From Candidatus Nanopelagicales bacterium (GTDB lineage: Bacteria; Actinomycetota; Actinomycetes; S36-B12): 64,000 nt of DNA. The notes under the pieces were generated by a model. That model made no database searches and was not told the DNA's origin. It was given only the letters and a program-made list of their open reading frames with translations. The position numbers were made by a program, and so were the translations under genes. Shown here in pieces: positions 10,984-59,932 of the stretch (its first letter is position 1; each line of letters opens with the position of its first letter). The stretch lies in contig JAURFD010000001.1 of assembly GCA_030827125.1 (NCBI GenBank), positions 226,750-290,749 on the forward strand, written 5' to 3'.

Positions 10984-10995
10984 AGGCGGTAGCGG

Positions 10996-44307: not shown

Positions 44308-44331
44308 GCCCTCGACGATCGAGGAGTAGAC

Positions 44332-45667: not shown

Positions 45668-45669
45668 GC

Positions 45670-47877
45670 CTACTGGGCGAGGGTGCCCTGGGCTGTGTCG
45701 GGGGAGAGGTCCTCCACGAGAATGCGCGCCCACTCATCGCAAACCGCGGGGAGCGGGAAACTGGCCTCCACCTGTTGGCGGGCCTCGGCAGCCGTCTGAG
45801 CCCAGCGGCCACTGGCGACCGTCTCGTGGATGGACTCGGCGATTGCTACCGGATCGGCGTGAATCCACCGCGTGTCATAGATCGTGTCTGATCCGGGCCA
45901 TGGCAGGAGCGCCGGGACGGCACCGGAGGCCATGCCCTCGGCGGGTGCGAGATGGAAACTCTCATCGTCTGACGTGGACAACACCCAGCCCACGCGTCGC
46001 AGCCAGGCGGGGACGTCGCCGCCGAAACCGTCGAAACTCACCGCACCGCGCACCGTGGGATCGGCATGCAGGCGCTCGAAGAGCCGTTCGGTCTCCGCTC
46101 TCTCTTCGGGCTTGCGCCAGATCCACCAGTAGTCCCACGGGAGCTTGGACTTGACGGCCAGGCGGTAGCGGCGGTCGCGGCGTCGCAGCCGCGACAGGAT
46201 CTCCAGACCCAGGTCCGGGCGCTTGCGGTGCGGCGAAATCCCGATCATCCCCAGCGTGAACTGAACATCGCCGAGTTTGGGGCGATCGAACTGCTCGATA
46301 TCGACCCAGTTCGGGATGACAATGATGCGATCAGCCGGCCAGCCGGTGCGCTGTGCGGTGAGTTGCGCATAGAACGGGCTGACGCAGACGACCTGGTCAA
46401 CGGCCTCGATGCGGACATCGTTGAGCCAACCGGCATCGAGTTCGAAACGATGCAGGCGCACGATAAGTCTTTGGTTGTCCCGCTTGTGCCGGCTGTACCA
46501 GACCAGATTGGGACCGGCCCATTCGCAGATGATGACGTCGGCCCACTCCACCATGGCGCGACTGGCTTCCTCGTCGTGGCTGGCCAGAGCTGCCCAGTGG
46601 TCGATACGTACCTCGAGTTCGGGGAGTGCCTCGAGGTGTTCCTGGATGCGGGTGAAGAACTTGAGGTCGTGGCTCACGACTCCCACGCGCAACCGCGCAC
46701 GTCCGGCAAGGGCGGGCGGAGCCGCCGGCAAGGCACGCTCGAGAAGACCTCGCATGCGATCGACCGACGCGGCCATCGTGTACGGCGCCACTGCGGCGGA
46801 CATGTCCCGGCACGCGGCACCGTGCAACTCCGGATTGGCGATGAGTGACTGGCATGCGGCCACGATGTCCTCGGCACTGCCGACGAACAACGGGTAGTCC
46901 TCGCCGATGAGATTCACGTGCATCGGCGTTCGATTGAGGAGTGGGGGGACGCCTAGCGCTCCGAACTCGAGGACCTTGGTGGACAGTTCGAGGCTTGCGT
47001 CCATCTTCGGATCCCGCCACGACATCCCGAGATCGGCGGTAGACGTGAGTTCCATCGCCTGCTGGCGGGGCATTCCGCCGTGCCAAATCACTCCGGGGGA
47101 GTCTTCGAGGGCGCTGCGCATCCGGTTCGACCAGTCGGGGTCGTCCGGGACGTCGTGAATCTTGTCGCCGACCATGTGCAGTTCGGCGTCGATGCCCACG
47201 GCCGCGAGCATCGCCGGGATCTGCGTCATCTCGAGCGTGTTCCACAGCGGAGCGAACTTGCCCGTGTAGACCAGACGCAGCGGCCGCACCTGCTGACCGT
47301 CCACGCTCACCGGCGAGCGCTCGGGCAGACCGAACTCGGGCTCGGGAACGACGGGACTCCACAGCACAGAGCGACCACAGGCCGCGGGCACGGTGGATTC
47401 GAGAAGGCAGCGCAGTTCCTCCGTCTGACACATCATGTAGCGGCTCGCTCGCGCAATGGCCTGCAGTCGATCTACCTGTTCGTCGTCCATCGCCAGTGGG
47501 TCTTGAGCGATGTCGGTGAGGTAGGTCCACAGGCGACCCGTCAGTCGCTCGCTGGCCGCCGCCGCGGTGACGAACCGCAGGCCGCGGACGACGATGAGAT
47601 CGGCCCGTTGCGCAGCATCGAGTTGCTCGAGATGGTCGACCGCCTGCGCGGGGGTGAGCGGGGTGCCCGTCCTCGCACCGTCGAAGGGATCAACGACGGT
47701 GACGCCGGACATCTCCCGAAGTGGTGCCACGAGCCGGTCGTTGTCCACGGGCGCCTTGAGGAGGACGCGCACCTCCACACCGCTGCGAGAGAGCGCCTCG
47801 CACATGGATTGCACCCAGATGGCCGAACCGTCAAGGATGTTGAGGTTGACGTCGCCGTAGACGAGTGCGCTGGTCAT
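45670..47877 (-). CDS. Dual-domain glycosyltransferase (two tandem GT-B / GT4-like modules); candidate polymerase
   Basis: About 735 aa. The first module ends with an E-x7-E-like ELSTKVLEFGALGVP. The second module has ESFHLAPAEGMASGAVP. ATG 47877 overlaps the upstream stop (ATGA); an alternative GTG lies at 47889. Confidence 0.65.
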   Translation of the reverse strand: MTSALVYGDVNLNILDGSAIWVQSMCEALSRSGVEVRVLLKAPVDNDRLVAPLREMSGVTVVDPFDGARTGTPLTPAQAVDHLEQLDAAQRADLIVVRGLRFVTAAAASERLTGRLWTYLTDIAQDPLAMDDEQVDRLQAIARASRYMMCQTEELRCLLESTVPAACGRSVLWSPVVPEPEFGLPERSPVSVDGQQVRPLRLVYTGKFAPLWNTLEMTQIPAMLAAVGIDAELHMVGDKIHDVPDDPDWSNRMRSALEDSPGVIWHGGMPRQQAMELTSTADLGMSWRDPKMDASLELSTKVLEFGALGVPPLLNRTPMHVNLIGEDYPLFVGSAEDIVAACQSLIANPELHGAACRDMSAAVAPYTMAASVDRMRGLLERALPAAPPALAGRARLRVGVVSHDLKFFTRIQEHLEALPELEVRIDHWAALASHDEEASRAMVEWADVIICEWAGPNLVWYSRHKRDNQRLIVRLHRFELDAGWLNDVRIEAVDQVVCVSPFYAQLTAQRTGWPADRIIVIPNWVDIEQFDRPKLGDVQFTLGMIGISPHRKRPDLGLEILSRLRRRDRRYRLAVKSKLPWDYWWIWRKPEERAETERLFERLHADPTVRGAVSFDGFGGDVPAWLRRVGWVLSTSDDESFHLAPAEGMASGAVPALLPWPGSDTIYDTRWIHADPVAIAESIHETVASGRWAQTAAEARQQVEASFPLPAVCDEWARILVEDLSPDTAQGTLAQ

Positions 47878-49466
47878 CGTGTGCTCCACAACACCGAGTC
47901 ATGCTGACGGGGCAGCGTCGGGAGTCCCGCGATCTGCTCGATCAGCAGATCGAGGATGGCATCGGGATCGTCGAGGTCGACCTGGCGCGCGATGTAGGGC
48001 GTGGTGACCGCCATGTTGAGCAGGGTGCGATCGCGGAGGACATCGTCGGGGAGAGGCGTGACGACGATTCCCTCCTCGTGCAGAAGGTTCATCGATCGGT
48101 CGGACAGGGGAGTCCGCACGACGAGTTCCCGCGGTCGCCACGACTGCAGGAGGATCTGATCGACATCGGGATCAGCACCGGCGATCAAGGCCACATCCCA
48201 CACGGCGCGCGGACGTGACTCGACGTCGAGGAGTTCCGCCAGGGTGGTCAACTGCACGGGCGCGGAGGCTCCGACCATGAGCGCACGCAGCACCGCCCGT
48301 CGCTGCCCGTCCGACATCGGTCGAGCTGCCTGTTCGAGCGCATCGGGGACGTTGGATGTCCCCTCGGTGAAGACGACGGCGCCGCGCGCTGCGTCCTGAC
48401 CGGCCAGCAGCGTGCGCAGGTCCGCATCGTGACCGGCGAGGACACGGCGCCCCGAGGCCAGCAGGCCGAGGCTGGTCGACGTCGCCCCCAGGAGGTGGTC
48501 GGGGGTCCACATCGGGTCCGCCAAGCCGAACGACGCCTTCGAGATCGCCTCGCGCAAGGCCACCGAGCGTTGGAGGCGAGGGTCGGGGGAGCACTCATCG
48601 CGTCCTGACCGATCAGCCTCGATCGCCGCGCGTAGTTCGCGTTCGAGAGGCGTGCCCGCGCGGCTCTCGCGGGGAACGAAGATGGAGGCGGAATGCGGGA
48701 CCTCCCCGAACTGCCAGGCGGCCGGGTCGATGCCCGGATGCCAGGGGTTGTCGCGGACCGAGCCCGGACCATCGACGACGAGATCGCACCGCTCCGCGAG
48801 TTCGGAGAGGAAGACGGTGCGGGACGGGGGCGTGGACCGAAGGAGGACCACGGGGCGCCCCTGCGCATGGGCCGCGTCGACCAACGCGGCGGCCGCGCGA
48901 AGTCGATCGACGGCTGCGGGGTCGCCGAGGTGCTCCCAGGATTCCCCCGGCAAGGCGGAAGCGGTGTCGATGACGACGATGTCGGCATCGACGGCTTCGA
49001 TCAGTGCGGGGCCTTCGTGCGGAAGGGCATTGCTCACCGCCGCATAGGGCGCCCACGCGAGTGCGGTGCGGTGTGAGAGGGCGCCAGCGATGGCCAGGGA
49101 TCCCTGCGCGGCCGCGGCTACCGACGTGCGCGGGATCAGTAGTCGCGGGGCGTCAAGATCGAGGACATCGTCGCGACGACCTCGCGTCGAAGGCGTGGTG
49201 GTCGGAGCCGTACGTCGCGATCGGCGAAGCCGCCAGATGCGCCATAGATCGCGGGGAAGGGTGAGGAGTCGTCGTGGGCTCTTGGCCGCATTCACCAAGA
49301 GGTTGCCGACGACGAACGACGCACTGCGCTGTGCACGTTCGAGGGCGCGCTCCGCACGATCGGCACGGGCTTCGGCGCGCCGCAGGTCGTGTTGGAGGCG
49401 GGCGACCTGGTTGGTAGGGCCGGGCTCGGGGGGCGCCTGCAGTTCGTCGGCCGGACCCTCGGTCAT
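47874..49466 (-). CDS. Hypothetical protein with N-terminal coiled-coil and basic amphipathic helix (function unknown)
   Basis: 530 aa. The N-terminus reads ARLQHDLRRAEARADRAERALERAQRSASFVVGNLLVNAAKSPRRLLTLPRDLWRIWRLRR. I recognise no catalytic motif. It is coupled by ATGA overlaps to both neighbouring genes. Confidence 0.6.
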   Translation of the reverse strand: MTEGPADELQAPPEPGPTNQVARLQHDLRRAEARADRAERALERAQRSASFVVGNLLVNAAKSPRRLLTLPRDLWRIWRLRRSRRTAPTTTPSTRGRRDDVLDLDAPRLLIPRTSVAAAAQGSLAIAGALSHRTALAWAPYAAVSNALPHEGPALIEAVDADIVVIDTASALPGESWEHLGDPAAVDRLRAAAALVDAAHAQGRPVVLLRSTPPSRTVFLSELAERCDLVVDGPGSVRDNPWHPGIDPAAWQFGEVPHSASIFVPRESRAGTPLERELRAAIEADRSGRDECSPDPRLQRSVALREAISKASFGLADPMWTPDHLLGATSTSLGLLASGRRVLAGHDADLRTLLAGQDAARGAVVFTEGTSNVPDALEQAARPMSDGQRRAVLRALMVGASAPVQLTTLAELLDVESRPRAVWDVALIAGADPDVDQILLQSWRPRELVVRTPLSDRSMNLLHEEGIVVTPLPDDVLRDRTLLNMAVTTPYIARQVDLDDPDAILDLLIEQIAGLPTLPRQHDSVLWSTR

Positions 49467-50548
49467 TCGCGGCCGCGTTCGTCAAGCCAGTCCAAGATGA
49501 CCTCGGCGATCCGATCACCGGCGTGCCCATCCCACAGGGGCGGGATCCGCTCGGCGTCGACGGGCTCGGCGAGGACCTCGTCAAGAAGGGCGACGAGCGT
49601 GGCGGGGGACGCGAGGCGATTGGTCCCATGGGTGATCGTGACCGGCCGCTCGGTGTTGGGGCGCAAGGTCAAGCAGGGCACCCGCAGCACGGTGGTTTCT
49701 TCCTGGACACCGCCGGAGTCGGTGATGACGGCACGGGCCCCGCTCACGAGGGACATGAAGTCCAGGTAGCCGAGGGGTTCCACGACGTGCACGCGCGGGT
49801 GATCCCCAATGCCGAGCGCCTCGAGGACGCGTCGCCCGCGCGGATGCAAGGGCAGAACGATCTCGGCCCGGGCAGCGGCTGAATGCACGAGGGCGACCAG
49901 TTCGGCCGCGGACTCAGGATCGTCGACGTTGCCCGGGCGGTGAAGGGTTGCGACGAGGTAGTCGTCGGGAAGTCCGAGGTCGGTACGAGCGCGCTGGGCG
50001 TCGAGGCGATCGAGGTTGGCGAGCAGGGTGTCGATCATGGGATTGCCGACCAGGTGGATCCGTTCCGCCGGCACCCCCTCGTGGGCGAGGTGAGCGATCG
50101 CGTCGGGACTGGTGCACAGCAGCAGGTCGGCGAGGCGATCGGTGACGATGCGATTGATCTCCTCGGGCATCGACATATCGAAGCTGCGCAATCCGGCCTC
50201 GACATGGGCCACGGGGATCTGCAGTTTGGCGGCGGCGATGCTCGCGGCCAAAGTGGAGTTCACATCGCCGTAGACGACGACCATGTCGGGTCGGGTGTCG
50301 AGCATCTCCACTTCGAGTCCGACAAGGATGGCGGCCGTCTGCTCGGCATGACTGCCCGAACCGACGCCCAGGTTGATGTCCGGCCGGGGGAGGTCGAGTT
50401 CGCGGAAGAAGATCTCCGACATGCGATCGTCGTAGTGCTGGCCGGTATGCACCAGGCGCTGACGGGCACCGCGGCGGGCGAGCGCGGCGATGACCGGGGC
50501 GGCCTTGGGGAAGTTGGGGCGGGCGCCGGTGACGTGCAGCAGGGTCAT
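49463..50548 (-). CDS. wecB: UDP-N-acetylglucosamine 2-epimerase (non-hydrolysing)
   Basis: MTLLHVTGARPNFPKAAPV, HTGQHYD, VYGDVNSTLA, HVEAGLRSFD and DSGGVQEE are classic WecB/MnaA motifs. Start ATG 50548; the track extension to 50758 is discounted. Confidence 0.9.
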   Translation of the reverse strand: MTLLHVTGARPNFPKAAPVIAALARRGARQRLVHTGQHYDDRMSEIFFRELDLPRPDINLGVGSGSHAEQTAAILVGLEVEMLDTRPDMVVVYGDVNSTLAASIAAAKLQIPVAHVEAGLRSFDMSMPEEINRIVTDRLADLLLCTSPDAIAHLAHEGVPAERIHLVGNPMIDTLLANLDRLDAQRARTDLGLPDDYLVATLHRPGNVDDPESAAELVALVHSAAARAEIVLPLHPRGRRVLEALGIGDHPRVHVVEPLGYLDFMSLVSGARAVITDSGGVQEETTVLRVPCLTLRPNTERPVTITHGTNRLASPATLVALLDEVLAEPVDAERIPPLWDGHAGDRIAEVILDWLDERGRE

Positions 50549-50627
50549 CTCGGCCTTCCCGTCATGTGGTCCTCGATTCAGCGCTCTACCTGCGCCGCCG
50601 TCTACTATCCCAGACCGGGAGGTGTCG

Positions 50628-52337
50628 ATGGCTACGCGCGGGCAAGACCGGCGTGCCCGCGAGGGTGCGCCTACCGACGCGGACTCACCGCGGCCGATCG
50701 GCTCCTCGCCGCGGCTGTGGGAGCGCGTCCTGCCCACGGTGCAGCACACACCCCTCATCGTGACCGGTGCGGTCCGTCGATTCCGCGAGGATCCGGCCCG
50801 GGGTCGGGCCGCCCTTGAGCGCGCCCTTCCTCGGCTGACCCCGGGTGCACCGGGCGGTGACGTGCTCGCCGCACTCGATCGGGCGATCGCGGCGGATCGC
50901 TACGACGAGGCGGTCACCTTGCTCGAACGCCTTGCTCCGGGTGACCCCGCGCGCCTTGGCGCGGAACTTGCGGTGGCCGGACTCGCCGGGCGACTGAACG
51001 ACGTCCTCGCCCATGAGCCGTCCGACCGACGCGGTCGGCGGGCGCTACGGCGTGCCGCGGCAGATCGGCAACGGCTCTCGGCCCCACTGCCCACCTGGTG
51101 CGCGGTATCGCCACGCACGCGTCCCACCACAGCAGAGGCGCCACGGATCCTCCACGTGGTGACCAATTCCCTGCCGCGCGTCCAGGCAGGCTCGACGATC
51201 CGCACTCAGCGCGTTGCCCGCGCGCAGCGCGACGCGGGGTGGGATGCCCAGGTCGTCACCCGTCCGGGATTCCCGGTCACTCGGGGTGAGGCCTGGGCCG
51301 CCGACGTGCAGTACGTCGACGGGATTCCCTATCACCGACTTCTGCCGCGGACGATGCCGTCCGAGGCTCGCGTGCCGGAGGTCTACGCCCGCGAGTTGGC
51401 CGCCCTCGTCGATGGGATCCGTCCCGATCTGCTCCACGGCGCCTCGGACCCGGTGAACGCCCGAGCCGCACTCGAGGTCGGGCGTCGGGCAGGTCTGCCG
51501 GTCGCCTACGAGGCGCGCAGCTTCTTCGAGGACACCTGGCTCAGCCGGCACGGAGGCGATCCCACGGCCGACACCTACCGCCTCCTCCGCGATCGCCACA
51601 CCGAGATCCTGCGGGCCGCTGATGTTGTGACGACGCTCGGTGTGGCCATGCGCGACGAGATCGTGCGTCGCGGGGTCCCCGCCGATCGCGTGATCATTGC
51701 CCCCAATGCCGTACCGGCCGCCTTCCTCGAGCCGCGAGCGGACACGGCGGAGCAGGCTCGCAGTCGCCTCGGCCTTGAAAACGCCGATCTGTGGGTTGGC
51801 AGCCTCGCGACTCTGAACGCCGACGAGGGCTTCGACACTCTCCTCGAGGCACTGGCTCTCCTGCGTGCCGAAGGGGTCGACGCGCGAGCGCTGCTCGTGG
51901 GGTCTGGCCCGACCTCGGCTGACCTCGCTCGACAGGCGGAGCAACGTGCAGTGCCCCTGACCATGCCGGGTCGGGTCCCGGTCGACGCGGTCCTGCCCTG
52001 GTACGACGCGCTGGACGTCTTCGCCTTCCCGCGACATGACACGGCGCTCAACCGCCTGGTTACCGGACTCAAGCCTGTGGAAGCCCAGGCCCGGGAGATC
52101 CCCGTGGTGGGCAGCGACCTGCCGGCCGTGCGGGAGGTGTCCGCTCCGGGGGCTGCTCTCGTGGCGTCCGGGGACGCGGCCGCGCTCGCGGAGGCCCTCA
52201 GCGGCCTGCTGGATCCCCGTGAACGAGGGGAGCGAGGCCGCGCCGCGCGCCAGTGGGTGAAGGAGACACGCACGTGGCCTCGCGTCATGGAGGCCTACCG
52301 GGCCGCGTACTCTTTCGGGGGTATCAGCGCCGCCTGA
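50628..52337 (+). CDS. GT4-family glycosyltransferase with ~190-aa N-terminal helical extension
   Basis: The GT-B core starts at RILHVVTNSLP. The C-terminal half has the donor-binding region (LVTGLKPVEAQAREIPVVGS). The preceding Ala/Arg/Leu-rich region has no recognisable motif. Confidence 0.7.
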   Translation: MATRGQDRRAREGAPTDADSPRPIGSSPRLWERVLPTVQHTPLIVTGAVRRFREDPARGRAALERALPRLTPGAPGGDVLAALDRAIAADRYDEAVTLLERLAPGDPARLGAELAVAGLAGRLNDVLAHEPSDRRGRRALRRAAADRQRLSAPLPTWCAVSPRTRPTTAEAPRILHVVTNSLPRVQAGSTIRTQRVARAQRDAGWDAQVVTRPGFPVTRGEAWAADVQYVDGIPYHRLLPRTMPSEARVPEVYARELAALVDGIRPDLLHGASDPVNARAALEVGRRAGLPVAYEARSFFEDTWLSRHGGDPTADTYRLLRDRHTEILRAADVVTTLGVAMRDEIVRRGVPADRVIIAPNAVPAAFLEPRADTAEQARSRLGLENADLWVGSLATLNADEGFDTLLEALALLRAEGVDARALLVGSGPTSADLARQAEQRAVPLTMPGRVPVDAVLPWYDALDVFAFPRHDTALNRLVTGLKPVEAQAREIPVVGSDLPAVREVSAPGAALVASGDAAALAEALSGLLDPRERGERGRAARQWVKETRTWPRVMEAYRAAYSFGGISAA

Positions 52338-52375
52338 GGGCGGAGCCGGCCATGGCGGCCGCGCGGCGACGAAGG

Positions 52376-53641: not shown

Positions 53642-53691
53642 TCGACGGCGGACAGCAGGTCGCAGCGAGCACCGTCACCGTCCCGGCCGAC

Positions 53692-54543
53692 GTGCTCGCC
53701 CGGGAGGCCGGGCTCACCCGAGTCAACAGCCGGCCGCCCTTCTTCGCCTACCTCCGCTCGCTGTGGCAGCGGCGTGCGTTCATCCGCGCGTTCGCCAAGG
53801 CAAGCGTCGATAAGCAGAACACCAAGAGTCGACTGGGCCAGTTCTGGCAGGTGATGGATCCGGTCCTCACCATGGCCCTGTACTGGTTCCTCTTCGGATT
53901 CCTGCTCGGTGGTCGCGGCAGCGTGGAGAATTACACCGGCTTCCTCGCGGCGGGTGTCTTCAGTTTTGCGATCATTCGCCAGTCCATTACGGCGGGTTCG
54001 CGTTCCATCTCGGGCAATGAGGGACTCGTCCGCTCCATTCACTTCCCGCGCGCGGTCTTGCCGATCGCCGTGGTGATGAAGCAACTGCGGGTCTTCTACT
54101 ACGCGATCCCCATCATGGTGGTGATTCTGCTCATTACGGGTGAGCCGATCACGTGGCGATGGTTGCTCGCGCCCGTCGGACTTCTGCTCATCGTGATGTT
54201 CTCGCTGGGTATGGCGATGATCATGGCCCGCATTGTGGCGACGCTGCAGGATGTGTCAGAGATCCTCGGATATCTGCTGCGCATCTGGGGATACATGTCC
54301 GGCGTGATGATCCCGATCGCCGACCGTCTCAGCCGGCTCGGCTTGCCGCCGTGGGCCGTGTTCATCATCGAAATCAATCCGGGGACGGTTTACCTCAACG
54401 TGATGCGTGATGCCCTCATGGCCTCCTATTACTCACCGGGCGGAGCACTGAACTGGATTCTGGCGGTCGCCTGGGCCGTGGTGATGCTGCCCTTCGGCAT
54501 GTGGTTCTTCTGGCGGGCGGAGGATCGCTATGGTCGAGGATGA
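53692..54543 (+). CDS. ABC-2-type polysaccharide/teichoic-acid exporter permease (Wzm/TagG-like)
   Basis: 283 aa with six predicted TM segments and the N-terminal amphipathic LRSLWQRRAFIRAF ... LGQFWQVMDPVL typical of ABC-2 permeases. GTG start is uncertain. Confidence 0.8.
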   Translation: MLAREAGLTRVNSRPPFFAYLRSLWQRRAFIRAFAKASVDKQNTKSRLGQFWQVMDPVLTMALYWFLFGFLLGGRGSVENYTGFLAAGVFSFAIIRQSITAGSRSISGNEGLVRSIHFPRAVLPIAVVMKQLRVFYYAIPIMVVILLITGEPITWRWLLAPVGLLLIVMFSLGMAMIMARIVATLQDVSEILGYLLRIWGYMSGVMIPIADRLSRLGLPPWAVFIIEINPGTVYLNVMRDALMASYYSPGGALNWILAVAWAVVMLPFGMWFFWRAEDRYGRG

Positions 54544-55498
54544 CGATGAGATGGAGATCGATCTCAGTGAGGAGGCCGACTTCTCCGATGTCGCGCCACC
54601 ACGCGAGAACGATCCGAACGCGCCAATCAAGGTGGTCGTCGACAACCTCCACATCGTCTATCGGGTGTGGACCGCTCCCGACCAGCCCCTAGAGGACACC
54701 GCCAGTCGCTGGCAGCGCATGCGCGCACGCCGGCCCGTGTCGACCAAGAGGGAGATCCATGCCCTGCGTGGCGTGAACTTCGTCGCGCGCCAGGGTGAGG
54801 CGGTGGGCGTCATCGGCAAGAATGGCGCGGGCAAATCCACGCTTATGCGCGCGATCGCCGGGCTCCTTCCGCCAAATCAGGGCGTGGTCTACGCCGACGG
54901 TCAACCGACGATGCTCGGCGTGAGTTCGGCGCTGATGCAGGCGCTGTCCGGCCTGCGCAATGTCGAGCTCGGCCTGCTTGCTTTGGGCCTCACTCCCAAG
55001 GAGGTCAAGGCGCGCATCCCGGACGTCATCGAATTCAGCGGAATTGGATCGGCGATCCATATGCCGATGAGCACCTATTCGTCAGGCATGTCCGCACGGT
55101 TGAAGTTCGCCATCGCCTCGGCGGTCACCCACGAAATCTTGCTCATCGATGAGGCGCTGTCGACCGGTGATGGTGAGTTCGTCAAGCGGTCGAGTCAGCG
55201 CATCCAGCAATTGCGCGATGACGCGGACACCATCTTCCTCGTAAGTCACTCGATGGGCGCCATCCGGTCCGCCTGCAATCGCGTGCTGTGGCTCGATGAG
55301 GGACAGATCCTGGCTGATGGACATCCGGACGACATCATCCCCGAGTACGAAGCGCGCTTCGGCCTGAAGTCGAAGAAGGCCATGCGTGAGCGGCGGAAGA
55401 AGCGCAAAGACGCCAACGAGCAGGCGATGGCCGAACTCGCCGCCGAAGGGTCGGACATGGTCAGCGCGACGGACCCGACGGTTCGCGGCCGGGACTAG
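54530..55498 (+). CDS. Polysaccharide/teichoic-acid exporter ATP-binding protein (Wzt/TagH-like)
   Basis: Walker A GKNGAGKSTL, signature YSSGMSARL, Walker B LLIDEA. It has an acidic N-terminal tail and a short charged C-terminal tail. Confidence 0.85.
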   Translation: MVEDDDEMEIDLSEEADFSDVAPPRENDPNAPIKVVVDNLHIVYRVWTAPDQPLEDTASRWQRMRARRPVSTKREIHALRGVNFVARQGEAVGVIGKNGAGKSTLMRAIAGLLPPNQGVVYADGQPTMLGVSSALMQALSGLRNVELGLLALGLTPKEVKARIPDVIEFSGIGSAIHMPMSTYSSGMSARLKFAIASAVTHEILLIDEALSTGDGEFVKRSSQRIQQLRDDADTIFLVSHSMGAIRSACNRVLWLDEGQILADGHPDDIIPEYEARFGLKSKKAMRERRKKRKDANEQAMAELAAEGSDMVSATDPTVRGRD

Positions 55499-55500
55499 CC

Positions 55501-56571
55501 GTGCGCGTCCTCGTCCTGTGTGCCGTGCACGATCCGCGAGATGCGCGCATCGCGGAACGCGAGATCGCGGCCCTTCTCGCGGCGGGGCATGAGGTGACCC
55601 AGGCCGGTCCGTTCAGCGCCTACGGCGCGGTGCCGCGTGATGGAGTGCGCGGCATCGATATTCCCCGAGCGACGGGCCGACGGCGCTTGGGCGCACTGCG
55701 TGAGTCGCGGCGAGTGCTGCGGCGTGAGGCTGCCTCCCACGACGTGGTGATCTTGCACAGTGCCGAAGCGGTAGCCGCCGCCACCGGGCTGCGCCATCCG
55801 TCCATCGTGTGGGATGTCCACGAGGACACCGCTGCGTCGCTCAGCCTGAAGCCTTGGTTGCCCAATCTGCTGCGTCGTCCCGTGGCCGGTCTCGCCCGTG
55901 CCGGGGAGTCGCTCGTCGAACGCCGTCGGCACCTTCTGCTCGCTGAGACGGCGTACGCACATCGGTTCGGCAGCGACCACCCGGTCGTGCCGAACAGTCC
56001 TGTGGTTCCGGCGCGAGTCCCGGCGAGCGGCCGCGGACGTGCGATCTACGTCGGGAGTGTGACAGTGGCGCGCGGCGGTGACGACCTCATCGCGCTGTCC
56101 CGACGACTGACCACTGTGAGCGTCGATGTGGTGGGCCCGGCGACCGGGGACCTGGTGGGACGGCTGCGCGCGGCCGAGGGTGAGTCGTTTCACTGGTGGG
56201 GATTCCGTCCCAACGCCGAAGCGCTCGCGCAGGTGGAGGGAGCGACCGTTGGCCTGTCACTCCTGCACGACGAGCCGAACTATCGGCACTCCATGCCCAC
56301 CAAGGTGTTGGAGTATCTCGCACGCGGTGTGCCCTTCATCTCGACTCCGCTTCCCCTGGCCGTTGACGTGGCCGAGCAGAGTGGCGCGGGGGTGATTGTG
56401 CCGTTCGGGGACCTCGATGCCGCGGCCGTCGCGGTGCAAGAGCTCAACGACGACGACGCGCGACGTCAGGCGATGGCCGAGGCTGGGAGGGCGTGGGTGC
56501 GTGCGAATGCCGACTGGGCCAACGACGGCCCGGCCTTCGTGGCGATCCTGGAGTCCTGGGCGCGGGGTTAG
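55501..56571 (+). CDS. Glycosyltransferase (GT-B fold, GT4-like)
   Basis: 356 aa. E-x7-E-like region SMPTKVLEYLARGVPFIS, and the N-terminal VRVLVLCAV typical of GT-B enzymes. Confidence 0.7.
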   Translation: MRVLVLCAVHDPRDARIAEREIAALLAAGHEVTQAGPFSAYGAVPRDGVRGIDIPRATGRRRLGALRESRRVLRREAASHDVVILHSAEAVAAATGLRHPSIVWDVHEDTAASLSLKPWLPNLLRRPVAGLARAGESLVERRRHLLLAETAYAHRFGSDHPVVPNSPVVPARVPASGRGRAIYVGSVTVARGGDDLIALSRRLTTVSVDVVGPATGDLVGRLRAAEGESFHWWGFRPNAEALAQVEGATVGLSLLHDEPNYRHSMPTKVLEYLARGVPFISTPLPLAVDVAEQSGAGVIVPFGDLDAAAVAVQELNDDDARRQAMAEAGRAWVRANADWANDGPAFVAILESWARG

Positions 56572-56640
56572 GCTGCGCCGGCTCGGCCGGCGTCGCACTA
56601 CCGAGCGCGCATTGCCATCGGGCGCCGGCCTGCCGGGCGC

Positions 56641-57729
56641 CTAGTCGCCAGACTCCTCCTCCGCCGCGGGCTTGCCGCCGCGGCGTTGGCTGAGCAGGTA
56701 GGCGGCGGCCCCGGCCGCTCGGGCCACGTCCTCCGGTGTGGGTACGCCGTCGGTGCCATCGGCCGCGACCGCGAGGTCCGCGAGATCTCCGAAGATTCGC
56801 ACTCCGGTGGCGCCGAGGTCGGCGATGTCCTCGGCGGCCCAGGTGCTCACGGTCGGAAGTAGCGCGGCCGGGAGTCCGAGTCGCTCGCCGCGATCCGGGC
56901 GGTCCGTCCAACCGCGACGGATGAGGGCGCGATGGGTCGACCGGACCTCTCGCCGGCCTTCGCCGGCCGCACGGGCCGCCAGGTTGAATCCGAAGATCGC
57001 GTAGGTCTCCGGCCCAGTCAGCGAGATGTTCGCTTTGTCCTCGGGTACCACCGGCGGGAGGGCTGGTAGGTCGTCGATGCCGCAGGCGGACGCGAATCGC
57101 TCCCACACCAGGGCCGCGCCGCCCCCGGCAGCGGGGACCGTGACCACGCGAACGGACTGCGCCCCTGCCGCCAGCCAGCGCCGCACGAGTTCGCCGTATC
57201 GATACGCCCGCCAGAATCCTCGGCGCAGCTCATCGCGATGACTCTGCGTTTCGCGTTCCTGCGCGCGCAGGCGCAGGTAGTCCGGATAGGCCTCGAAGTT
57301 GCCGTTGCGCATGTGCTGCTGCCAGGAACTCGGCAGGATCCGCGCGAGATCGCGCGCGGTGACCACGACGTCCATCGATACGCCGTCGAACGCATCGACG
57401 ACCGCAGCCGCTCCGTCATCGGTGAGCACCGACAGCGCTTCGGCGGACAGGATGACCTCGCCGGGGGCGCTGTGCACCACCGAGAGAAGTGCTTCGGCAT
57501 CGGAGCCGTCCTGCTCGGTCCAGGCATCCGGCTGAAGGCCGATGCCGCCGGATTGGCGCGCGAGATCGATGAGACCGGGCACCTGATTGTGGTCGACGCG
57601 GCCGCGGGTCTCGATGGGATAGATGGTGGGGGCAAGTTCACCGGCGAGGACCAGCGCCTGCAGGGCGCGTTGAACGTATGTGGTCGCGGTTTTGCGCGGT
57701 CCGATGTGCAGAACGACGCGCGATGCCAC
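56641..57729 (-). CDS. Sulfotransferase-like protein, uncharacterised family (paralog of 58762-59850)
   Basis: The N-terminal VVLHIGPRKTATTYVQ resembles the PAPS 5'-phosphosulfate-binding loop. VVVTARDLARILPSSWQQH resembles the 3'-phosphate-binding R-x-x-x-D/S region. It is clearly paralogous to the gene two positions upstream. Confidence 0.5.
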   Translation of the reverse strand: MASRVVLHIGPRKTATTYVQRALQALVLAGELAPTIYPIETRGRVDHNQVPGLIDLARQSGGIGLQPDAWTEQDGSDAEALLSVVHSAPGEVILSAEALSVLTDDGAAAVVDAFDGVSMDVVVTARDLARILPSSWQQHMRNGNFEAYPDYLRLRAQERETQSHRDELRRGFWRAYRYGELVRRWLAAGAQSVRVVTVPAAGGGAALVWERFASACGIDDLPALPPVVPEDKANISLTGPETYAIFGFNLAARAAGEGRREVRSTHRALIRRGWTDRPDRGERLGLPAALLPTVSTWAAEDIADLGATGVRIFGDLADLAVAADGTDGVPTPEDVARAAGAAAYLLSQRRGGKPAAEEESGD

Positions 57730-57738
57730 GGGCTGGCC

Positions 57739-58752
57739 TCAGCGACCGAAGCGACGCCGGACGGCCGCGACGAGATCCTCGGGTCGCTGGTCGTCGCGGC
57801 CGAGGCAGTAGGCCCCGGCCACACCGCACAGGGTTGCTGCCGCCCACAGCAGGGACGACGACCCTGGATTGCGGCGTGAGCTCACCGCCGCCGCCAGGGA
57901 CAACACTCCGGCGGCCGCGAGTGGGAGGAGGGCAGCCGGCAAATCGCCCGCTTCACCGGAGATGCGCGACGTGCGGGCACCGACACTCGACCCGCTCTGG
58001 GCGTGCTTGGGCTGGTACTCCTCGGGCTCGCGCAGGTCCAGGGTCTTGCGCGTGCCGACCGCGGTCTCTACGCCGTAGCCGTGCTCCACGAGCCAGCGGG
58101 CACCCTCGGCCTCGATCGCGACGAGCTCCTCATCGGTGAGGGTGTCGCGCCACGCGCCAGCGCGACCGTCGGTGATGTGGTTGGAGGTCACGCGCAGGTC
58201 GTCGTCGACACCGTGCGCCTTGGCCGCGACTGCGCGCTGCTCCTGAGCCGCGAGATCGACGTCCGCGACGATCTTGGCCACTCCGGCCTCATCGATATCC
58301 ACCTCGAGGAACGTCGCGAGATCGCGGACCAGCCCCGGAACGTCATCGCGGAAGTCTTCATATTTGCCGATCCAGACATCCTTGCGTGAGGTCCAGAACT
58401 CATCACCGCGCAATTCACGGCGCACGATGAGGCGACTGTTGCGCGCACCACGCTCGGGATCGCCCGGCTTTGCGCGGCCCTTGCGATAGAGCGAAGCGAC
58501 GACGTCGCGAGGGTCGCGATAGGTGTAGAGGTATTTCGCTCCCGCGTCCGGGAAGTCGCCGCGGTTGAGGGCCGGCCGGAAGTGCACCTTGGCCATGAGG
58601 AGATCAGCCGGGTCCGCCGCCGCCGCGGGATATTCCGACGTGGGGATGCCACGCGGGTTGCGCAGGCCAGGGCGACCGTCGACGAGTTGTCGGGCGATCT
58701 GCCACACGAGCGTGGAACCGGAGCGGTGCATGCCGCAGACGAGGAGAAGCAC
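57739..58752 (-). CDS. Sulfotransferase with C-terminal membrane anchor
   Basis: GMHRSGSTLVWQ (5'-PSB loop) and YTYRDPRDVVASLYRK (3'-PB motif). The C-terminal ~70 aa contains two hydrophobic segments (LPAALLPLAAAGVLSLAAAV, LLWAAATLCGVAGAYCLG). GTG start. Confidence 0.65.
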   Translation of the reverse strand: MLLLVCGMHRSGSTLVWQIARQLVDGRPGLRNPRGIPTSEYPAAAADPADLLMAKVHFRPALNRGDFPDAGAKYLYTYRDPRDVVASLYRKGRAKPGDPERGARNSRLIVRRELRGDEFWTSRKDVWIGKYEDFRDDVPGLVRDLATFLEVDIDEAGVAKIVADVDLAAQEQRAVAAKAHGVDDDLRVTSNHITDGRAGAWRDTLTDEELVAIEAEGARWLVEHGYGVETAVGTRKTLDLREPEEYQPKHAQSGSSVGARTSRISGEAGDLPAALLPLAAAGVLSLAAAVSSRRNPGSSSLLWAAATLCGVAGAYCLGRDDQRPEDLVAAVRRRFGR

Positions 58753-58761
58753 GTGCGCAGT

Positions 58762-59850
58762 CTAGGTGCTGCGGACCGGGAGTCCGGCGAGGTAGGCCAT
58801 CGCCGCGCCCGCTGCGCGGGCGATCTCGTCCGGATCGGGACCGTCACCGACGGGAGCGTCGGCGTCCACCAGGAGATCGGATCGCGGACCGACGAGGATG
58901 GCCGAGGTCGAATCGAGAACCTCGACATCGTCACGGGCCCACGCGCGGGCCCGTTCGGCCCAATGGCGGGGGAGTTGAACGGGTGTTCCGCGGTCAGGTC
59001 GGACCGCGAAGGCCTCGCGCACCAGCCGGCCGCGCAGGGCACGCAGGTCAGGTCCGTCGGCCTTCACCGAGTCCACCTGCCGGTTTAGGGCGGCGAGGAC
59101 CAGGACCTCAGGCTCGGTCAGACCGACATTGGCGGCGAGGTCGTCGATGGTCGGAGGAGTTTCTGGCAGCGCGGGGCCCACGTCAAGGGCGCGCCGGAAG
59201 CGATGCCACAACTCATCCGGGGCCGCGCCGCGGCGGGGGACGGTGACGACGCTTACGGTGCGCGCGAAGGGCGCCCAGCGTTCGACCAGGGTGCCGATGG
59301 CATAGGCCCGCCAGAAGGTCTGGTCCGGATCGTCGTTCCACCGAGCGGCGCGCTCCCGTGCGTTGCCCTCGCCACGACGGTCGGCCTGTTGCTGAAGGAA
59401 CGACGGGAAACTCGTCGACCTGCCATTGCGGATGTGCTGCTGCCACGAACTCGGCAGCACGCGTCCGAGATCACGGGCGGTGATGATGACGTGGGTGTTG
59501 GGGACCCCAAGACTCTCGACAAGACGTCGCGCTGCGTCGGCGTCGATGACGGAGAGCGCCTCGCCTGACACGATCGCCGTGCCATCCCACTGGCCGACCT
59601 TGCGCACGAGGCCGTTCCATGATCCTTCCTGCCCTCGCGCACGGGCCTCGGGCACCCACGGGAAAGAGGCGGTCCCGAGCAGTCCGTAGGCGGCCGCTTC
59701 ATGGTTGTAGACCTCGCGGCGCCCGTGCAGGCGCGTTGGGTAGAGCACGCCGTCGCGCTTGAGCGAGGACGAGAGGGCCGCGAGGACGCGCTGGAGGTAC
59801 GTCGTACCGGACTTCTGCGTACCGATGTGCAGCAGCAGTCGATCGGCCAC
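58762..59850 (-). CDS. Sulfotransferase-like protein, uncharacterised family (paralog of 56641-57729)
   Basis: LLLHIGTQKSGTTYLQ, IITARDLGRVLPSSWQQH, FWRAY and VSVVTVP are all shared with the paralog. Start GTG 59850 is preceded by GGGAG; the track ORF extends to 59904. Confidence 0.5.
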   Translation of the reverse strand: MADRLLLHIGTQKSGTTYLQRVLAALSSSLKRDGVLYPTRLHGRREVYNHEAAAYGLLGTASFPWVPEARARGQEGSWNGLVRKVGQWDGTAIVSGEALSVIDADAARRLVESLGVPNTHVIITARDLGRVLPSSWQQHIRNGRSTSFPSFLQQQADRRGEGNARERAARWNDDPDQTFWRAYAIGTLVERWAPFARTVSVVTVPRRGAAPDELWHRFRRALDVGPALPETPPTIDDLAANVGLTEPEVLVLAALNRQVDSVKADGPDLRALRGRLVREAFAVRPDRGTPVQLPRHWAERARAWARDDVEVLDSTSAILVGPRSDLLVDADAPVGDGPDPDEIARAAGAAMAYLAGLPVRST

Positions 59851-59932
59851 ACGCGCTCCCTGCGACTCGGGACGTCCTCGACGTCGGGAGCCCCATCCTG
59901 TCACGACCCGATCGCGTGGCAGGCTTGCCCGC

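What the first reader, a model, noticed from the sequence alone, without database searches (positions are those of the whole stretch)
45670..59904. 14-kb wall-glycopolymer biosynthesis and export island inserted precisely between truB and ribF
**Seen in the sequence.**
- In the otherwise canonical nusA, ylxR, infB, rbfA, truB, ribF, rpsO, pnp block, 11 extra genes sit between truB and ribF.
- The truB stop (45667) is only 2 nt from the stop of the convergent first island gene, with no hairpin between them.
- The last island gene starts 30-80 nt from the divergent ribF start.
- The island forms three units.
  - Minus strand: wecB, the 530-aa unknown and the dual glycosyltransferase, joined by ATGA overlaps.
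  - Plus strand: GT4, nucleotide-sugar 6-dehydrogenase, Wzm, Wzt and a further glycosyltransferase.
  - Minus strand: three sulfotransferase-like genes.

**From established knowledge.**
- An epimerase plus a 6-dehydrogenase yields N-acetylhexosaminuronic acid donors.
- Glycosyltransferases combined with an ABC-2 exporter are the hallmark of ABC-transporter-dependent teichuronic-acid or O-antigen-like pathways.

**Inference.** The island makes an acidic cell-wall polysaccharide.

**Missing from the island.**
- a priming phosphoglycosyltransferase (TagO/WecA type)
- an LCP-family ligase
- PAPS-synthesis genes
- any integrase, transposase or flanking tRNA
Basis: partly seen in the sequence, partly recalled or inferred. 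Interest (0 to 1): 0.75.

Follow-up and report, generated by a model that had tools for sequence, protein, structure and literature searches.

The report
Conserved sulfated wall-polysaccharide gene cluster
Eleven genes wedged between two housekeeping genes (truB and ribF) of an uncultured high-GC actinobacterium look like an assembly line for an acidic, probably sulfated, cell-surface polysaccharide. The block is an old, vertically inherited feature of a whole uncultured lineage, not a recent mobile island.

Summary
Eleven genes (45670-59850) sit between truB (stop 45667) and ribF (start 59933), with the junctions described.

Profile searches confirm these parts:
- a WecB-type UDP-GlcNAc 2-epimerase
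- a Cap5O/WecC-like nucleotide-sugar 6-dehydrogenase
- a Wzm/Wzt ABC-2 exporter
- GT4-type glycosyltransferases
- one bona fide sulfotransferase

The 530-aa "unknown" is predicted with confidence to be a divergent GT-B glycosyltransferase-fold protein with an N-terminal helical arm. The two other "sulfotransferase-like" genes are paralogues in an unclassified P-loop family that keeps sulfotransferase-like PAPS-binding residues.

The "island" reading is only half right:
- Outgroup Actinomycetes have truB next to ribF.
- Every g2 or g11 relative whose contig reached far enough carries the same cluster at the same site. Truncated contigs show the matching part. This holds down to 39% identity for the 530-aa protein and 52% for truB.
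- Island and flanking genes diverge in the same order.
- Codon usage equals the rest of the window.
- There are no tRNAs, mobility genes or flanking repeats.

So this is an ancient, fixed insertion.

Best reading: an ABC-transporter-dependent pathway for a ManNAcA-containing, cytoplasmically sulfated, teichuronic-acid-like polymer. That is a new variant of a known kind, of moderate interest.

The parts
44756..45667 (+). truB (tRNA pseudouridine-55 synthase), left boundary
   Evidence: PF01509 at 8.6e-44. The 303-aa gene call comes from identical public contigs.
45670..47877 (-). g1: 735-aa protein with two tandem GT-B (GT4-like) modules; candidate polymerase
   Evidence: Pfam Glyco_transf_4 (45 bits) and Glyco_trans_1_4 (34 bits) in the C-terminal half. 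The N-terminal half has weaker, sub-threshold GT4-type hits. No sequence match in the PDB. It is 71-86% identical across the clade. More than 120 90%-identity clusters share at least 66% identity, all metagenomic.
47874..49466 (-). g2: 530-aa protein with no Pfam or NCBIfam family; N-terminal long helices followed by a divergent GT-B fold
   Evidence: No family above threshold. AlphaFold model has pLDDT 86.5, with helices at 17-110 and then two Rossmann-like domains. Foldseek gives probability 1.0 to PglA, MshA, PimA and BshA, E 7e-6 to 1e-3. The module is fused to GT2 or to TPR+GT4 in other proteins.
49463..50548 (-). g3: non-hydrolysing UDP-GlcNAc 2-epimerase (WecB/Cap5P type)
   Evidence: TIGR00236 scores 299.9 bits against a cut-off of 210. 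PF02350 at 3.9e-102.
50549..50627 (.). 79-nt divergent intergenic region between g3 and g4 (presumed shared promoter region)
   Evidence: Sequence read. No sigma-70 consensus match, which is uninformative for a high-GC actinomycete.
50628..52337 (+). g4: GT4 glycosyltransferase with a ~170-aa N-terminal helical extension
   Evidence: Glyco_trans_1_4 at 1.9e-20 and Glyco_trans_4_4 at 2.8e-17. The best NCBIfam hit, TIGR04063, is below its cut-off. PimB' is the best PDB sequence match.
52352..53641 (+). g5: nucleotide-sugar 6-dehydrogenase, most like UDP-ManNAc dehydrogenase (WecC/Cap5O)
   Evidence: TIGR03026 scores 429 bits against a cut-off of 190. The UDP-ManNAc dehydrogenase equivalog is the best specific hit but is below its cut-off (251 vs 459). 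The best solved relative is Cap5O at 6.7e-66.
53692..54543 (+). g6: Wzm-type ABC-2 permease
   Evidence: PF01061 scores 43.5 bits against a cut-off of 26.9. It has multiple hydrophobic segments. It is 84-95% identical across the clade.
54530..55498 (+). g7: Wzt/TagH-type ATP-binding subunit, without a C-terminal carbohydrate-binding domain
   Evidence: PF00005 at 8.7e-19. The best NCBIfam hits are the TagH models (187-195 bits, below their cut-offs). After the ATPase domain only a short charged tail remains.
55501..56571 (+). g8: GT-B (GT4-like) glycosyltransferase
   Evidence: Glyco_trans_1_2 at 2.2e-8 and Glyco_trans_1_4 at 2.3e-8, both above their cut-offs.
56641..57729 (-). g9: paralogue of g11; unclassified sulfotransferase-like P-loop protein
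   Evidence: No Pfam or NCBIfam hit. It is 34% identical to g11, E 1e-54. It shares the HIGxxKxxTTY and TARDLxRxLPSSWQQHxRNG motifs.
57739..58731 (-). g10: PAPS-type sulfotransferase with a C-terminal hydrophobic membrane anchor
   Evidence: PF00685 scores 53.2 bits against a cut-off of 22. Its PDB relatives are retinol dehydratase, SULT4A1 and StaL. The hydrophobic C-terminal hairpin is conserved in relatives.
58762..59850 (-). g11: unclassified sulfotransferase-like P-loop protein
   Evidence: PF13469 scores only 18.9 bits against a cut-off of 27. AlphaFold model has pLDDT 93.9. There is no strong PDB fold match; sulfotransferases appear among the weak hits. K13, T17, R126 and S134 are invariant.
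59851..59932 (.). 82-nt divergent intergenic region between g11 and ribF
59933..60832 (+). ribF (FAD synthetase / riboflavin kinase), right boundary
   Evidence: PF06574 at 1.1e-39 and PF01687 at 3.4e-36.

Best explanation
The 11 genes form a vertically inherited, lineage-wide cluster for ABC-transporter-dependent synthesis of an acidic cell-envelope glycopolymer. The polymer is probably sulfated and is closest in logic to a teichuronic acid. The lineage is uncultured and high-GC; depositors name relatives 'Candidatus Nanopelagicales bacterium' or 'Actinomycetales bacterium mxb001'.

**Proposed steps**
1. g3 (WecB type) converts UDP-GlcNAc to UDP-ManNAc, and g5 (Cap5O/WecC-like) oxidises it to UDP-ManNAcA. 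The families are shown here; the substrate is inferred.
2. A WecA/TagO-type enzyme encoded elsewhere primes the chain on undecaprenyl phosphate (inferred).
3. The chain is built entirely on the cytoplasmic face by five GT-B modules. g4 and g8 probably act as adaptor or side-chain transferases. The two-module g1 is the likely alternating co-polymerase. g2 is a divergent GT-B protein with a helical arm, acting either as a further transferase or as a scaffold or chain-length factor. The folds are shown; the roles are inferred.
4. While still cytoplasmic, the chain is O-sulfated from PAPS. The membrane-anchored g10 does this, and probably the paralogues g9 and g11 do too. g10's family is shown; g9/g11 activity is inferred from conserved PAPS-loop-like residues.
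5. Wzm/Wzt (g6/g7) export the finished polymer. Wzt has no carbohydrate-binding domain, so export is not gated by a chain-end cap (inferred).
6. LCP enzymes encoded elsewhere attach the polymer to peptidoglycan (inferred).

**Origin.** The cluster entered the truB|ribF operon boundary once, in the ancestor of this clade, and has been kept under strong purifying selection since.
For: **Gene families**
- assign the families.
- wecB exceeds its equivalog cut-off. The dehydrogenase exceeds its subfamily cut-off, and its best solved relative is Cap5O (6.7e-66).
- ABC2_membrane, ABC_tran and Sulfotransfer_1 are all above their gathering scores.

**g2**
- The model is confident (pLDDT 86.5).
- Its GT-B matches have Foldseek probability 1.0.
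- The g2-like module is fused to GT2 or to TPR+GT4 elsewhere. One such fusion sits in another glycosyltransferase-rich cluster.

**No Wzx/Wzy**
- Wzm is the only multi-pass membrane protein in the block.

**Ancient vertical inheritance**
- The same gene order occurs at the same site in L038-L042 and L044.
- Identities of island and flanking genes fall in the same order across loci. Wzm (84-95%), the dehydrogenase (83-92%) and wecB (80-91%) are more conserved than truB (52-75%).
- Codon usage and GC3 of island genes do not differ from 35 other window genes (Mann-Whitney p = 0.96 and p = 0.13).
- There is no tRNA and no flanking repeat.

**Derived state**
- Outgroup loci that include both genes show ribF just downstream of truB. 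This includes low-GC Nanopelagicales.

**Precedents from the literature**
- Micrococcus luteus teichuronic acid is a [ManNAcA-Glc]n polymer made by a membrane enzyme complex (PMC3005890).
- Sulfated, ABC-transporter-exported capsules with cluster-encoded sulfotransferases exist in Vibrio sp. KMM 8419 (PMC11641403).
Against: - There is no chemistry. The organism is uncultured, and the polymer, its uronic acid and its sulfate are all predictions.
- The dehydrogenase is below the UDP-ManNAc dehydrogenase equivalog cut-off (251 vs 459 bits), so the exact sugar is uncertain.
- g9 and g11 fail the Pfam threshold (18.9 vs 27 bits).
- The g11 family has no significant fold or profile match to sulfotransferases. 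Foldseek E is at best 1e-3, with TM no higher than 0.40. hhalign gives E 0.31 and the PDB profile search gives E 0.61.
- No PAPS-synthesis, priming-transferase or LCP gene is in the 64 kb window. PAPS supply and wall attachment therefore rest on genes not seen.
- Foldseek TM-scores for g2 are low (0.31-0.44). No catalytic motif was identified, so g2 may be a non-catalytic GT-B-like protein.
- Carriers were found by querying with island proteins. Island-less members inside the clade cannot be excluded.
Confidence: 0.65

Rival explanations
1. The block is a recently acquired genomic island, horizontally transferred and strain- or species-specific, dropped into the truB-ribF junction.
For: - truB and ribF are direct neighbours in the outgroup Actinomycetes sampled, so the block is an insertion relative to them.
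- The boundaries are very tight: 2 nt at truB and 82 nt at ribF.
- Other Actinomycetes show smaller, different insertions of about 0.8-3.3 kb at this junction, for example L002, L008 and L021. The site therefore tolerates insertions.
Against: - The same 11-gene order occurs at the same site in relatives whose truB is only 52-75% identical.
- Island and flanking genes diverge together.
- Codon usage and GC3 cannot be told apart from the rest of the window.
- No integrase or transposase domain, no tRNA and no flanking repeats were found.
Confidence: 0.05
2. The product is a released or loosely attached capsule or exopolysaccharide, or a lipid-anchored glycan, rather than a peptidoglycan-linked teichuronic-acid-like wall polymer. 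It would be made by the same ABC-dependent route.
For: - No LCP ligase is in the cluster or the window.
- ABC-transporter-dependent sulfated polymers known so far are capsules of Gram-negative bacteria (PMC11641403).
- The sulfated polysaccharide predicted for Actinoplanes missouriensis is an extracellular matrix EPS (PMC13390465).
Against: - Capsule and O-antigen loci are typically hypervariable between strains. Here, gene content and order stay fixed across deep divergence, and the genes are more conserved than truB. This resembles core wall-polymer pathways.
- LCP genes are usually encoded away from the polymer cluster. This point rests on established knowledge and was not tested here.
Confidence: 0.2
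3. The polymer is not sulfated, or carries only one sulfate. g9 and g11 would then be P-loop enzymes of another kind, such as kinases or other transferases, or they would act on a small molecule or lipid rather than the polymer.
For: - g9 and g11 have no family assignment above threshold.
- The top Foldseek hits for the g11 model are GPN-loop GTPases and nucleotide kinases as much as sulfotransferases, all weak.
- Homologues in Actinomadura sit outside any glycan cluster.
- One relative (L042) lacks g9 next to g8.
- No PAPS genes are nearby.
Against: - Fourteen of 52 family members hit only Sulfotransfer_3 among relevant Pfam families.
- A UniRef entry in the family is named 'sulfotransferase family protein'.
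- The invariant K13/T17 residues, and R126/S134 spaced eight residues apart, match the 5'-PSB and 3'-PB PAPS-binding signatures of sulfotransferases. This is knowledge-based; hhalign aligns the second motif to g10's RDPRDVVAS.
- g9 and g11 flank the bona fide sulfotransferase g10 in one co-directional block that is conserved across the clade.
Confidence: 0.25

Closest known systems
Micrococcus luteus cell-wall teichuronic acid, [-4-beta-D-ManNAcA-(1->6)-alpha-D-Glc-1-]n (PMC3005890)
   Same: - It occurs in an actinobacterium.
- It is an acidic wall polymer whose acid sugar is ManNAcA.
- It needs the epimerase and dehydrogenase pair that g3 and g5 resemble.
- It is an alternating two-sugar polymer made by a membrane-associated complex with two transferase activities, which matches the two-module g1.
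   Different: - No sulfation is known for it.
- No sequence comparison with the M. luteus genes was possible here.
- Wall linkage of the present polymer is untested.
- The present cluster adds three sulfotransferase-like genes and the g2 family.
ABC-transporter-dependent wall teichoic acid and O-antigen pathways (TagGH; Wzm/Wzt)
   Same: - It has an ABC-2 permease and ATPase pair. The best NCBIfam hits are TagH and the mycobacterial galactan Wzm/Wzt.
- The glycosyltransferases are all cytoplasmic.
- There is no Wzx or Wzy.
- The priming enzyme is encoded elsewhere, as is common.
   Different: - All transporter hits are far below the equivalog cut-offs.
- Wzt has no carbohydrate-binding domain, so it is not the capped-chain O9a type.
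- The polymer is a glycan with a uronic acid, not a polyol phosphate.
Sulfated ABC-transporter-dependent capsule of Vibrio sp. KMM 8419 (PMC11641403), and KpsS-dependent sulfation in Mesorhizobium loti (cited in PMC11625862)
   Same: - A polysaccharide is assembled in the cytoplasm.
- It is sulfated by cluster-encoded PAPS-type sulfotransferases.
- It is exported by an ABC transporter.
   Different: - Those systems are in Gram-negative bacteria and involve outer-membrane export.
- The Vibrio cluster carries its own cysDNC PAPS genes and mobile elements, and it varies between strains.
- The present cluster has no PAPS genes, is compositionally native and is fixed across a lineage.
wps-1 cluster of Actinoplanes missouriensis, a predicted sulfated exopolysaccharide (PMC13390465)
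   Same: - It is in an actinomycete.
- It combines glycosyltransferases with two sulfotransferases of different families.
- Its sulfated product is predicted but not chemically shown.
   Different: - It uses the Wzx/Wzy-dependent route, not an ABC transporter.
- It has a developmental role in the sporangium matrix.
- No uronic-acid module is described for it.

Membership tests
ABC-transporter-dependent glycopolymer pathway (Wzm/Wzt or TagGH type) | Adjacent ABC-2 permease and ATP-binding subunit genes | tested here: met
   PF01061 scores 43.5 bits (cut-off 26.9) and PF00005 scores 68.9 bits (cut-off 25). The two genes overlap at 54530-54543. The best NCBIfam hits are TagH, Wzt and Wzm, but all are below the equivalog cut-offs.
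ABC-transporter-dependent glycopolymer pathway (Wzm/Wzt or TagGH type) | Soluble or peripheral cytoplasmic glycosyltransferases build the whole chain; no Wzx flippase or Wzy polymerase | tested here: met
   There are five GT-B modules in g1, g2, g4 and g8. Only Wzm has multiple hydrophobic segments.
ABC-transporter-dependent glycopolymer pathway (Wzm/Wzt or TagGH type) | Priming on undecaprenyl phosphate by a WecA/TagO-type phosphoglycosyltransferase | tested here: not met
   No such gene is in the cluster or elsewhere in the 64 kb window. The rest of the genome is not available, so absence from the organism is not shown.
Teichuronic acid (uronic-acid wall polymer) | Dedicated synthesis of a nucleotide-activated uronic acid | tested here: met
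   wecB equivalog TIGR00236 scores 299.9 bits (cut-off 210). The nucleotide-sugar dehydrogenase subfamily model scores 429 bits (cut-off 190). The best solved relative is Cap5O, a UDP-ManNAc dehydrogenase, at 6.7e-66. The exact substrate is not proven: the UDP-ManNAc dehydrogenase equivalog scores 251 bits against a cut-off of 459.
Teichuronic acid (uronic-acid wall polymer) | Covalent attachment to peptidoglycan (LCP ligase; phosphodiester to MurNAc) | not testable with these tools
   No LCP gene is in the window. This needs the full genome and wall chemistry.
PAPS-dependent sulfotransferases: g10 | Match to a curated sulfotransferase model above threshold | tested here: met
   PF00685 scores 53.2 bits against a cut-off of 22. 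Its PDB relatives are SULT-type enzymes and StaL.
PAPS-dependent sulfotransferases: g9 and g11 | Match to a curated sulfotransferase model above threshold | tested here: not met
   g11 scores 18.9 bits on PF13469 against a cut-off of 27. g9 has no hit. Fourteen of 52 family members give weak PF13469 hits, the best at 5.9e-5.
PAPS-dependent sulfotransferases: g9 and g11 | Sulfotransferase fold with 5'-PSB (K, T/S) and 3'-PB (R...S) PAPS-binding loops | tested here: inconclusive
   K13, T17, R126 and S134 are invariant in 52 sequences. Their spacing matches the known motifs, which is a knowledge-based reading. The confident model (pLDDT 93.9) has a P-loop-type core but only weak PDB matches. hhalign to g10 aligns the R...S motif only, at E 0.31.
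GT-B glycosyltransferases: g2 | Two Rossmann-like domains with the GT-B topology | tested here: met
   The AlphaFold model has pLDDT 86.5. Foldseek gives probability 1.0 to PglA, MshA, PimA, GlgM and BshA, but TM-scores are only 0.31-0.44.
GT-B glycosyltransferases: g2 | Sequence membership of a CAZy or Pfam GT family, and catalytic or donor-binding motifs | tested here: not met
   There is no Pfam or NCBIfam hit. The invariant residues cluster in the N-terminal Rossmann domain. No EX7E-type motif was identified.
Recently acquired genomic island | Atypical composition, mobility genes or a tRNA/repeat boundary, and patchy distribution among close relatives | tested here: not met
   Codon usage and GC3 equal the rest of the window. 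There is no tRNA, no flanking repeats and no integrase or transposase domain. The same cluster sits at the same site across deep divergence.

The most novel reading that the evidence does not exclude
This would be the first multiply sulfated, ManNAcA-based wall (teichuronic-acid-type) polymer in a Gram-positive lineage. It would be a defining, core-genome envelope component of an abundant uncultured high-GC actinobacterial clade. It would be made with two protein families that no database classifies: the g9/g11 sulfotransferase-like family and the g2 helical-arm GT-B family.
Probability: 0.3. Interest if true: 0.6.

Novelty: new variant of a known kind. Interest (0 to 1): 0.45.

Why it matters
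- **Rare chemistry.** Sulfated polysaccharides are rare in bacteria. They are documented mainly in cyanobacteria, rhizobia and a few marine Gram-negatives, and for actinomycetes they are so far only predicted (PMC13390465).
- **A fixed envelope feature.** This cluster is conserved and native in composition. It would give an entire uncultured, environmentally widespread actinobacterial lineage a strongly anionic, sulfate-bearing envelope polymer. That would bear on phage and toxin receptors, on metal and cation binding, and on carbon and sulfur cycling.
- **Two families to test.** Two unclassified protein families can be tested biochemically: g2 (a GT-B fold with a helical arm) and g9/g11 (a candidate new polysaccharide sulfotransferase family). 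Enzymes of the latter kind are sought for biotechnological sulfation.
- **Operon evolution.** It is a clean example of a large biosynthetic operon set becoming fixed inside the ancient nusA-infB-rbfA-truB / ribF-rpsO-pnp housekeeping block.

Tried and rejected
- **truB synteny scans.** They served as outgroups but could not sample close relatives without the island.
- **Exact look-up of g2.** It found nothing, although identical contigs exist. Look-up with Wzt worked.
- **Fold search of the g11 model.** It gave no decisive match.
- **Other tests of the g11 family.** The PDB profile search and hhalign against g10 were not significant.
- **Actinomadura homologue of g11.** Its neighbourhood is unrelated, so cultured homologues give no functional context.
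- **Last protein search, on g1.** The 120 best hits listed included no cultured organism, so no experimental model could be named.
- **Literature searches.** Searches for a sulfated teichuronic acid or wall glycopolymer in actinomycetes found nothing relevant. A search for 'mxb001' gave only irrelevant papers.
- **Antisense ORFs.** ORFs such as 51045-52388 (minus) and 45326-45733 (minus) were rejected as high-GC shadow ORFs. The opposite-strand genes have domain hits and public gene calls.
- **TauE-family permease at 37579-38439.** Its link to sulfation was left as coincidence. It is conserved beside rimP/nusA in relatives, but nothing connects it to PAPS metabolism.

Full report
**1. Observation**

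The window is high-GC DNA (about 67%) with the strong GC3 bias of an actinomycete.

The ORF map, translations and Pfam scans confirm the housekeeping block nusA, ylxR, infB, rbfA, truB | ribF, rpsO, pnp. Eleven extra genes lie between truB (44756-45667) and ribF (59933-60832).

Near-identical public contigs carry the same genes. Their gene calls fix the start codons:

| Gene | Coordinates | Strand |
|---|---|---|
| g1 | 45670-47877 | - |
| g2 | 47874-49466 | - |
| g3 | 49463-50548 | - |
| g4 | 50628-52337 | + |
| g5 | 52352-53641 | + |
| g6 | 53692-54543 | + |
| g7 | 54530-55498 | + |
| g8 | 55501-56571 | + |
| g9 | 56641-57729 | - |
| g10 | 57739-58731 | - |
| g11 | 58762-59850 | - |

- The truB TAG and the g1 stop are separated by 2 nt, with no terminator-like hairpin.
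- g3/g2 and g2/g1 overlap by ATGA.
- 82 nt separate the divergent g11 and ribF starts.

**2. What the genes are**

*Sugar-nucleotide enzymes*
- g3 passes the NCBIfam equivalog cut-off for the non-hydrolysing UDP-GlcNAc 2-epimerase WecB (299.9 vs 210 bits).
- g5 passes the nucleotide-sugar dehydrogenase subfamily cut-off (429 vs 190 bits).
- g5's best specific model is UDP-ManNAc dehydrogenase, which it does not reach (251 vs 459 bits).
- g5's best solved relative is S. aureus Cap5O, a UDP-ManNAc dehydrogenase (6.7e-66).

*Exporter*
- g6 and g7 are an ABC-2 permease and ATPase pair. Their best hits are TagH and the mycobacterial galactan Wzm/Wzt, all below the equivalog cut-offs.
- Wzt ends in a short charged tail, not a carbohydrate-binding domain.

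*Glycosyltransferases*
- g4 and g8 are GT4-type GT-B glycosyltransferases. g4 has a helical N-terminal extension of about 170 aa.
- g1 has two tandem GT-B modules. The N-terminal one is only weakly detected.

*Sulfotransferase-like genes*
- g10 is a genuine Sulfotransfer_1 member (53 bits against a cut-off of 22).
- g10 carries a C-terminal hydrophobic hairpin that is conserved in relatives, so it is probably membrane-anchored.
- g9 and g11 are paralogues (34% identity, E 1e-54) with no family above threshold.

**3. The two unclassified families**

*g2 (530 aa)*
- It has no Pfam or NCBIfam hit.
- An alignment-based AlphaFold model is confident (pLDDT 86.5, pTM 0.75). It shows long N-terminal helices (residues 17-110), including an invariant motif around G54-R76, followed by two Rossmann-like domains.
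- Foldseek against the PDB returns GT4-type GT-B enzymes with probability 1.0: PglA, MshA, PimA, GlgM and BshA. E-values are 7e-6 to 1e-3 and TM-scores are modest, 0.31-0.44.
- A profile search of 1.84 billion representative proteins finds 432 relatives.
- In some relatives the g2-like module is fused behind a GT2 domain, or behind TPR plus GT4. One such fusion lies in another glycosyltransferase-rich cluster.
- g2 is therefore a divergent GT-B-fold component of glycan assembly. Whether it is catalytic is open.

*g11*
- Its model is very confident (pLDDT 93.9) and has a P-loop-type core, but no strong structural neighbour. Sulfotransferases, GPN-loop GTPases and nucleotide kinases all appear as weak hits.
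- Fourteen of 52 family members weakly hit Sulfotransfer_3.
- The invariant residues K13 and T17 (in HIGTQKSGTTY), and R126 and S134 (in TARDLGRVLPSSWQQ), have the positions and spacing of the 5'-PSB and 3'-PB PAPS-binding loops of sulfotransferases. This comparison rests on established knowledge of the family.
- hhalign aligns the second motif to g10's YRDPRDVVAS, without significance.
- I read g9 and g11 as probable but unproven sulfotransferases.

**4. Is it an island?**

*Against other Actinomycetes it is an insertion.*
- In 49 loci from species-representative genomes and JGI metagenomes, every locus containing both genes has ribF downstream of truB with none of the island genes between them. 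This includes low-GC Nanopelagicales.
- A few loci carry other, smaller insertions of roughly 0.8-3.3 kb at the junction.

*Within its lineage it is not an island.*
- Homologues of g2 form a narrow family: 87 clusters at 90% identity, all metagenomic.
- Every g2 homologue whose contig I could inspect sits in the same cluster in the same order, and wherever the contig reaches that far the cluster abuts truB (L038-L042). Short contigs (L043, L068, L069) show only the matching core.
- A g11 homologue at 62% identity shows the ribF-rpsO-pnp side (L044).

*Island and flanking genes diverge in the same order across loci L038, L039, L040, L041 and L042.*

| Gene | L038 | L039 | L040 | L041 | L042 |
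|---|---|---|---|---|---|
| truB | 75% | 68% | 55% | 56% | 52% |
| g1 | 86% | 80% | 73% | 71% | 71% |
| g2 | 76% | 64% | 48% | 50% | 39% |

- Wzm, the dehydrogenase and wecB (80-95%) are more conserved than truB.
- Codon usage and GC3 of the 11 genes do not differ from 35 other genes of the window (p = 0.96 and p = 0.13).
- There is no tRNA and no flanking repeat. No protein scanned in the block or its flanks has an integrase or transposase domain.
- g1 alone has more than 120 90%-identity clusters at 66% identity or more, all from metagenomes. The carrier clade is therefore diverse, widespread and uncultured.
- Depositors name relatives 'Candidatus Nanopelagicales bacterium' and 'Actinomycetales bacterium mxb001'.

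*Caveat.* Carriers were found with island proteins as queries, so secondary loss inside the clade cannot be excluded.

*Variation seen.*
- One relative (L042) lacks g9.
- A distant locus (L043) has the wecB-g2 / GT4-dehydrogenase-GT core without the transporter between them.

**5. Mechanism proposed**

1. UDP-GlcNAc is epimerised by g3 and oxidised by g5 to UDP-ManNAcA.
2. A lipid-linked primer made by an enzyme encoded elsewhere is extended in the cytoplasm by g4 and g8. It is then polymerised by the two-module g1, with g2 as a further transferase or scaffold.
3. The chain is sulfated from PAPS by the membrane-anchored g10, and probably by g9 and g11. This is topologically possible only because ABC-dependent pathways finish the polymer in the cytoplasm.
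4. Wzm/Wzt export the polymer.
5. LCP enzymes encoded elsewhere would attach it to the wall.

*Shown here:* the families and folds, the gene organisation, and the conservation.

*Inferred:* the substrates, the order of action, the sulfation by g9 and g11, and the wall linkage.

No PAPS-synthesis, priming or LCP gene lies in the 64 kb window.

**6. Comparison with known systems**

- The closest known logic is the Micrococcus luteus ManNAcA-Glc teichuronic acid (PMC3005890) combined with TagGH- or Wzm/Wzt-type export.
- Cytoplasmic sulfation has precedents in the ABC-dependent sulfated capsule of Vibrio sp. KMM 8419 (PMC11641403) and in KpsS of Mesorhizobium loti (cited in PMC11625862).
- For actinomycetes, only a predicted Wzx/Wzy-dependent sulfated EPS has been reported, in Actinoplanes missouriensis (PMC13390465).
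- Searches of the held literature found no sulfated wall teichuronic acid in actinomycetes.

**7. Verdict**

- The functional reading is supported and refined.
- The 'inserted island' reading is replaced by 'ancient, fixed, lineage-defining cluster'.
- It is a new variant of a known kind of pathway and contains two unclassified protein families.
- Interest is moderate, because everything about the product is still prediction and the organism is uncultured.

Noticed in passing
window 61349-61406 (+): An Actino-pnp RNA (Rfam RF01688; 62.7 bits against a gathering score of 47.7) lies in the rpsO-pnp leader. The longest pnp ORF (GTG at 61363) overlaps it. The public gene call starts pnp at 61462, which leaves the RNA element in the 5' UTR.
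   Followed up: partly
window 44307-44332; L040 15181-15483, L041 15116-15421, L042 13663-13968: Deeper-branching relatives carry a ~100-aa DUF503 gene between infB and rbfA. The window, like L038 and L039, has only 24 nt there. The gene was therefore lost, or never gained, in the window's sub-lineage.
   Followed up: partly
window 37579-38439 (+): A TauE/SafE-family anion (sulfite-type) permease lies about 7 kb upstream of the cluster. It occupies the same position beside rimP/nusA in relatives L038, L040 and L041. No link to the sulfotransferases was established.
   Followed up: no
L002, L008, L021, L007, L011, L015, L058 (truB-ribF junctions): Several unrelated Actinomycetes have 0.8-3.3 kb of other DNA between truB and ribF. 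This operon boundary seems to accept insertions repeatedly. The contents of these insertions were not examined.
   Followed up: no
window 7284-30660: A dense run of amine and aldehyde catabolism-type genes. It includes three aldehyde dehydrogenases, two DAO-type FAD oxidoreductases, a class-III aminotransferase, saccharopine-dehydrogenase-like, amidohydrolase, nitrilase-family and luciferase-like monooxygenase genes. It also holds two ABC importers with solute-binding proteins. This looks like a polyamine or organic-amine utilisation region.
   Followed up: no
window 41545-44307 (+), infB residues ~50-300: Initiation factor IF-2 has a very long Ala/Pro/Gly-rich, low-complexity N-terminal region with repeated '[14 protein letters not shown]' units. 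It accounts for the local GC peak (0.73) at 41500-42500.
   Followed up: no
L045 (Actinomadura sp. WMMB 499, CP044407.1) 8928-11119: The g11-family homologue of a cultured Actinomadura sits next to another 339-aa protein with no Pfam family, outside any glycan cluster. The g9/g11 family therefore has other, unknown contexts in cultured actinomycetes.
   Followed up: no
window 51045-52388 (-) and 45326-45733 (-): Long antisense 'shadow' ORFs with coding-like GC3 lie opposite g4 and opposite the truB 3' end. They are typical of high-GC genomes. Their opposite-strand genes, g4 and truB, have Pfam hits, and the shadow ORFs are absent from the public gene calls.
   Followed up: partly
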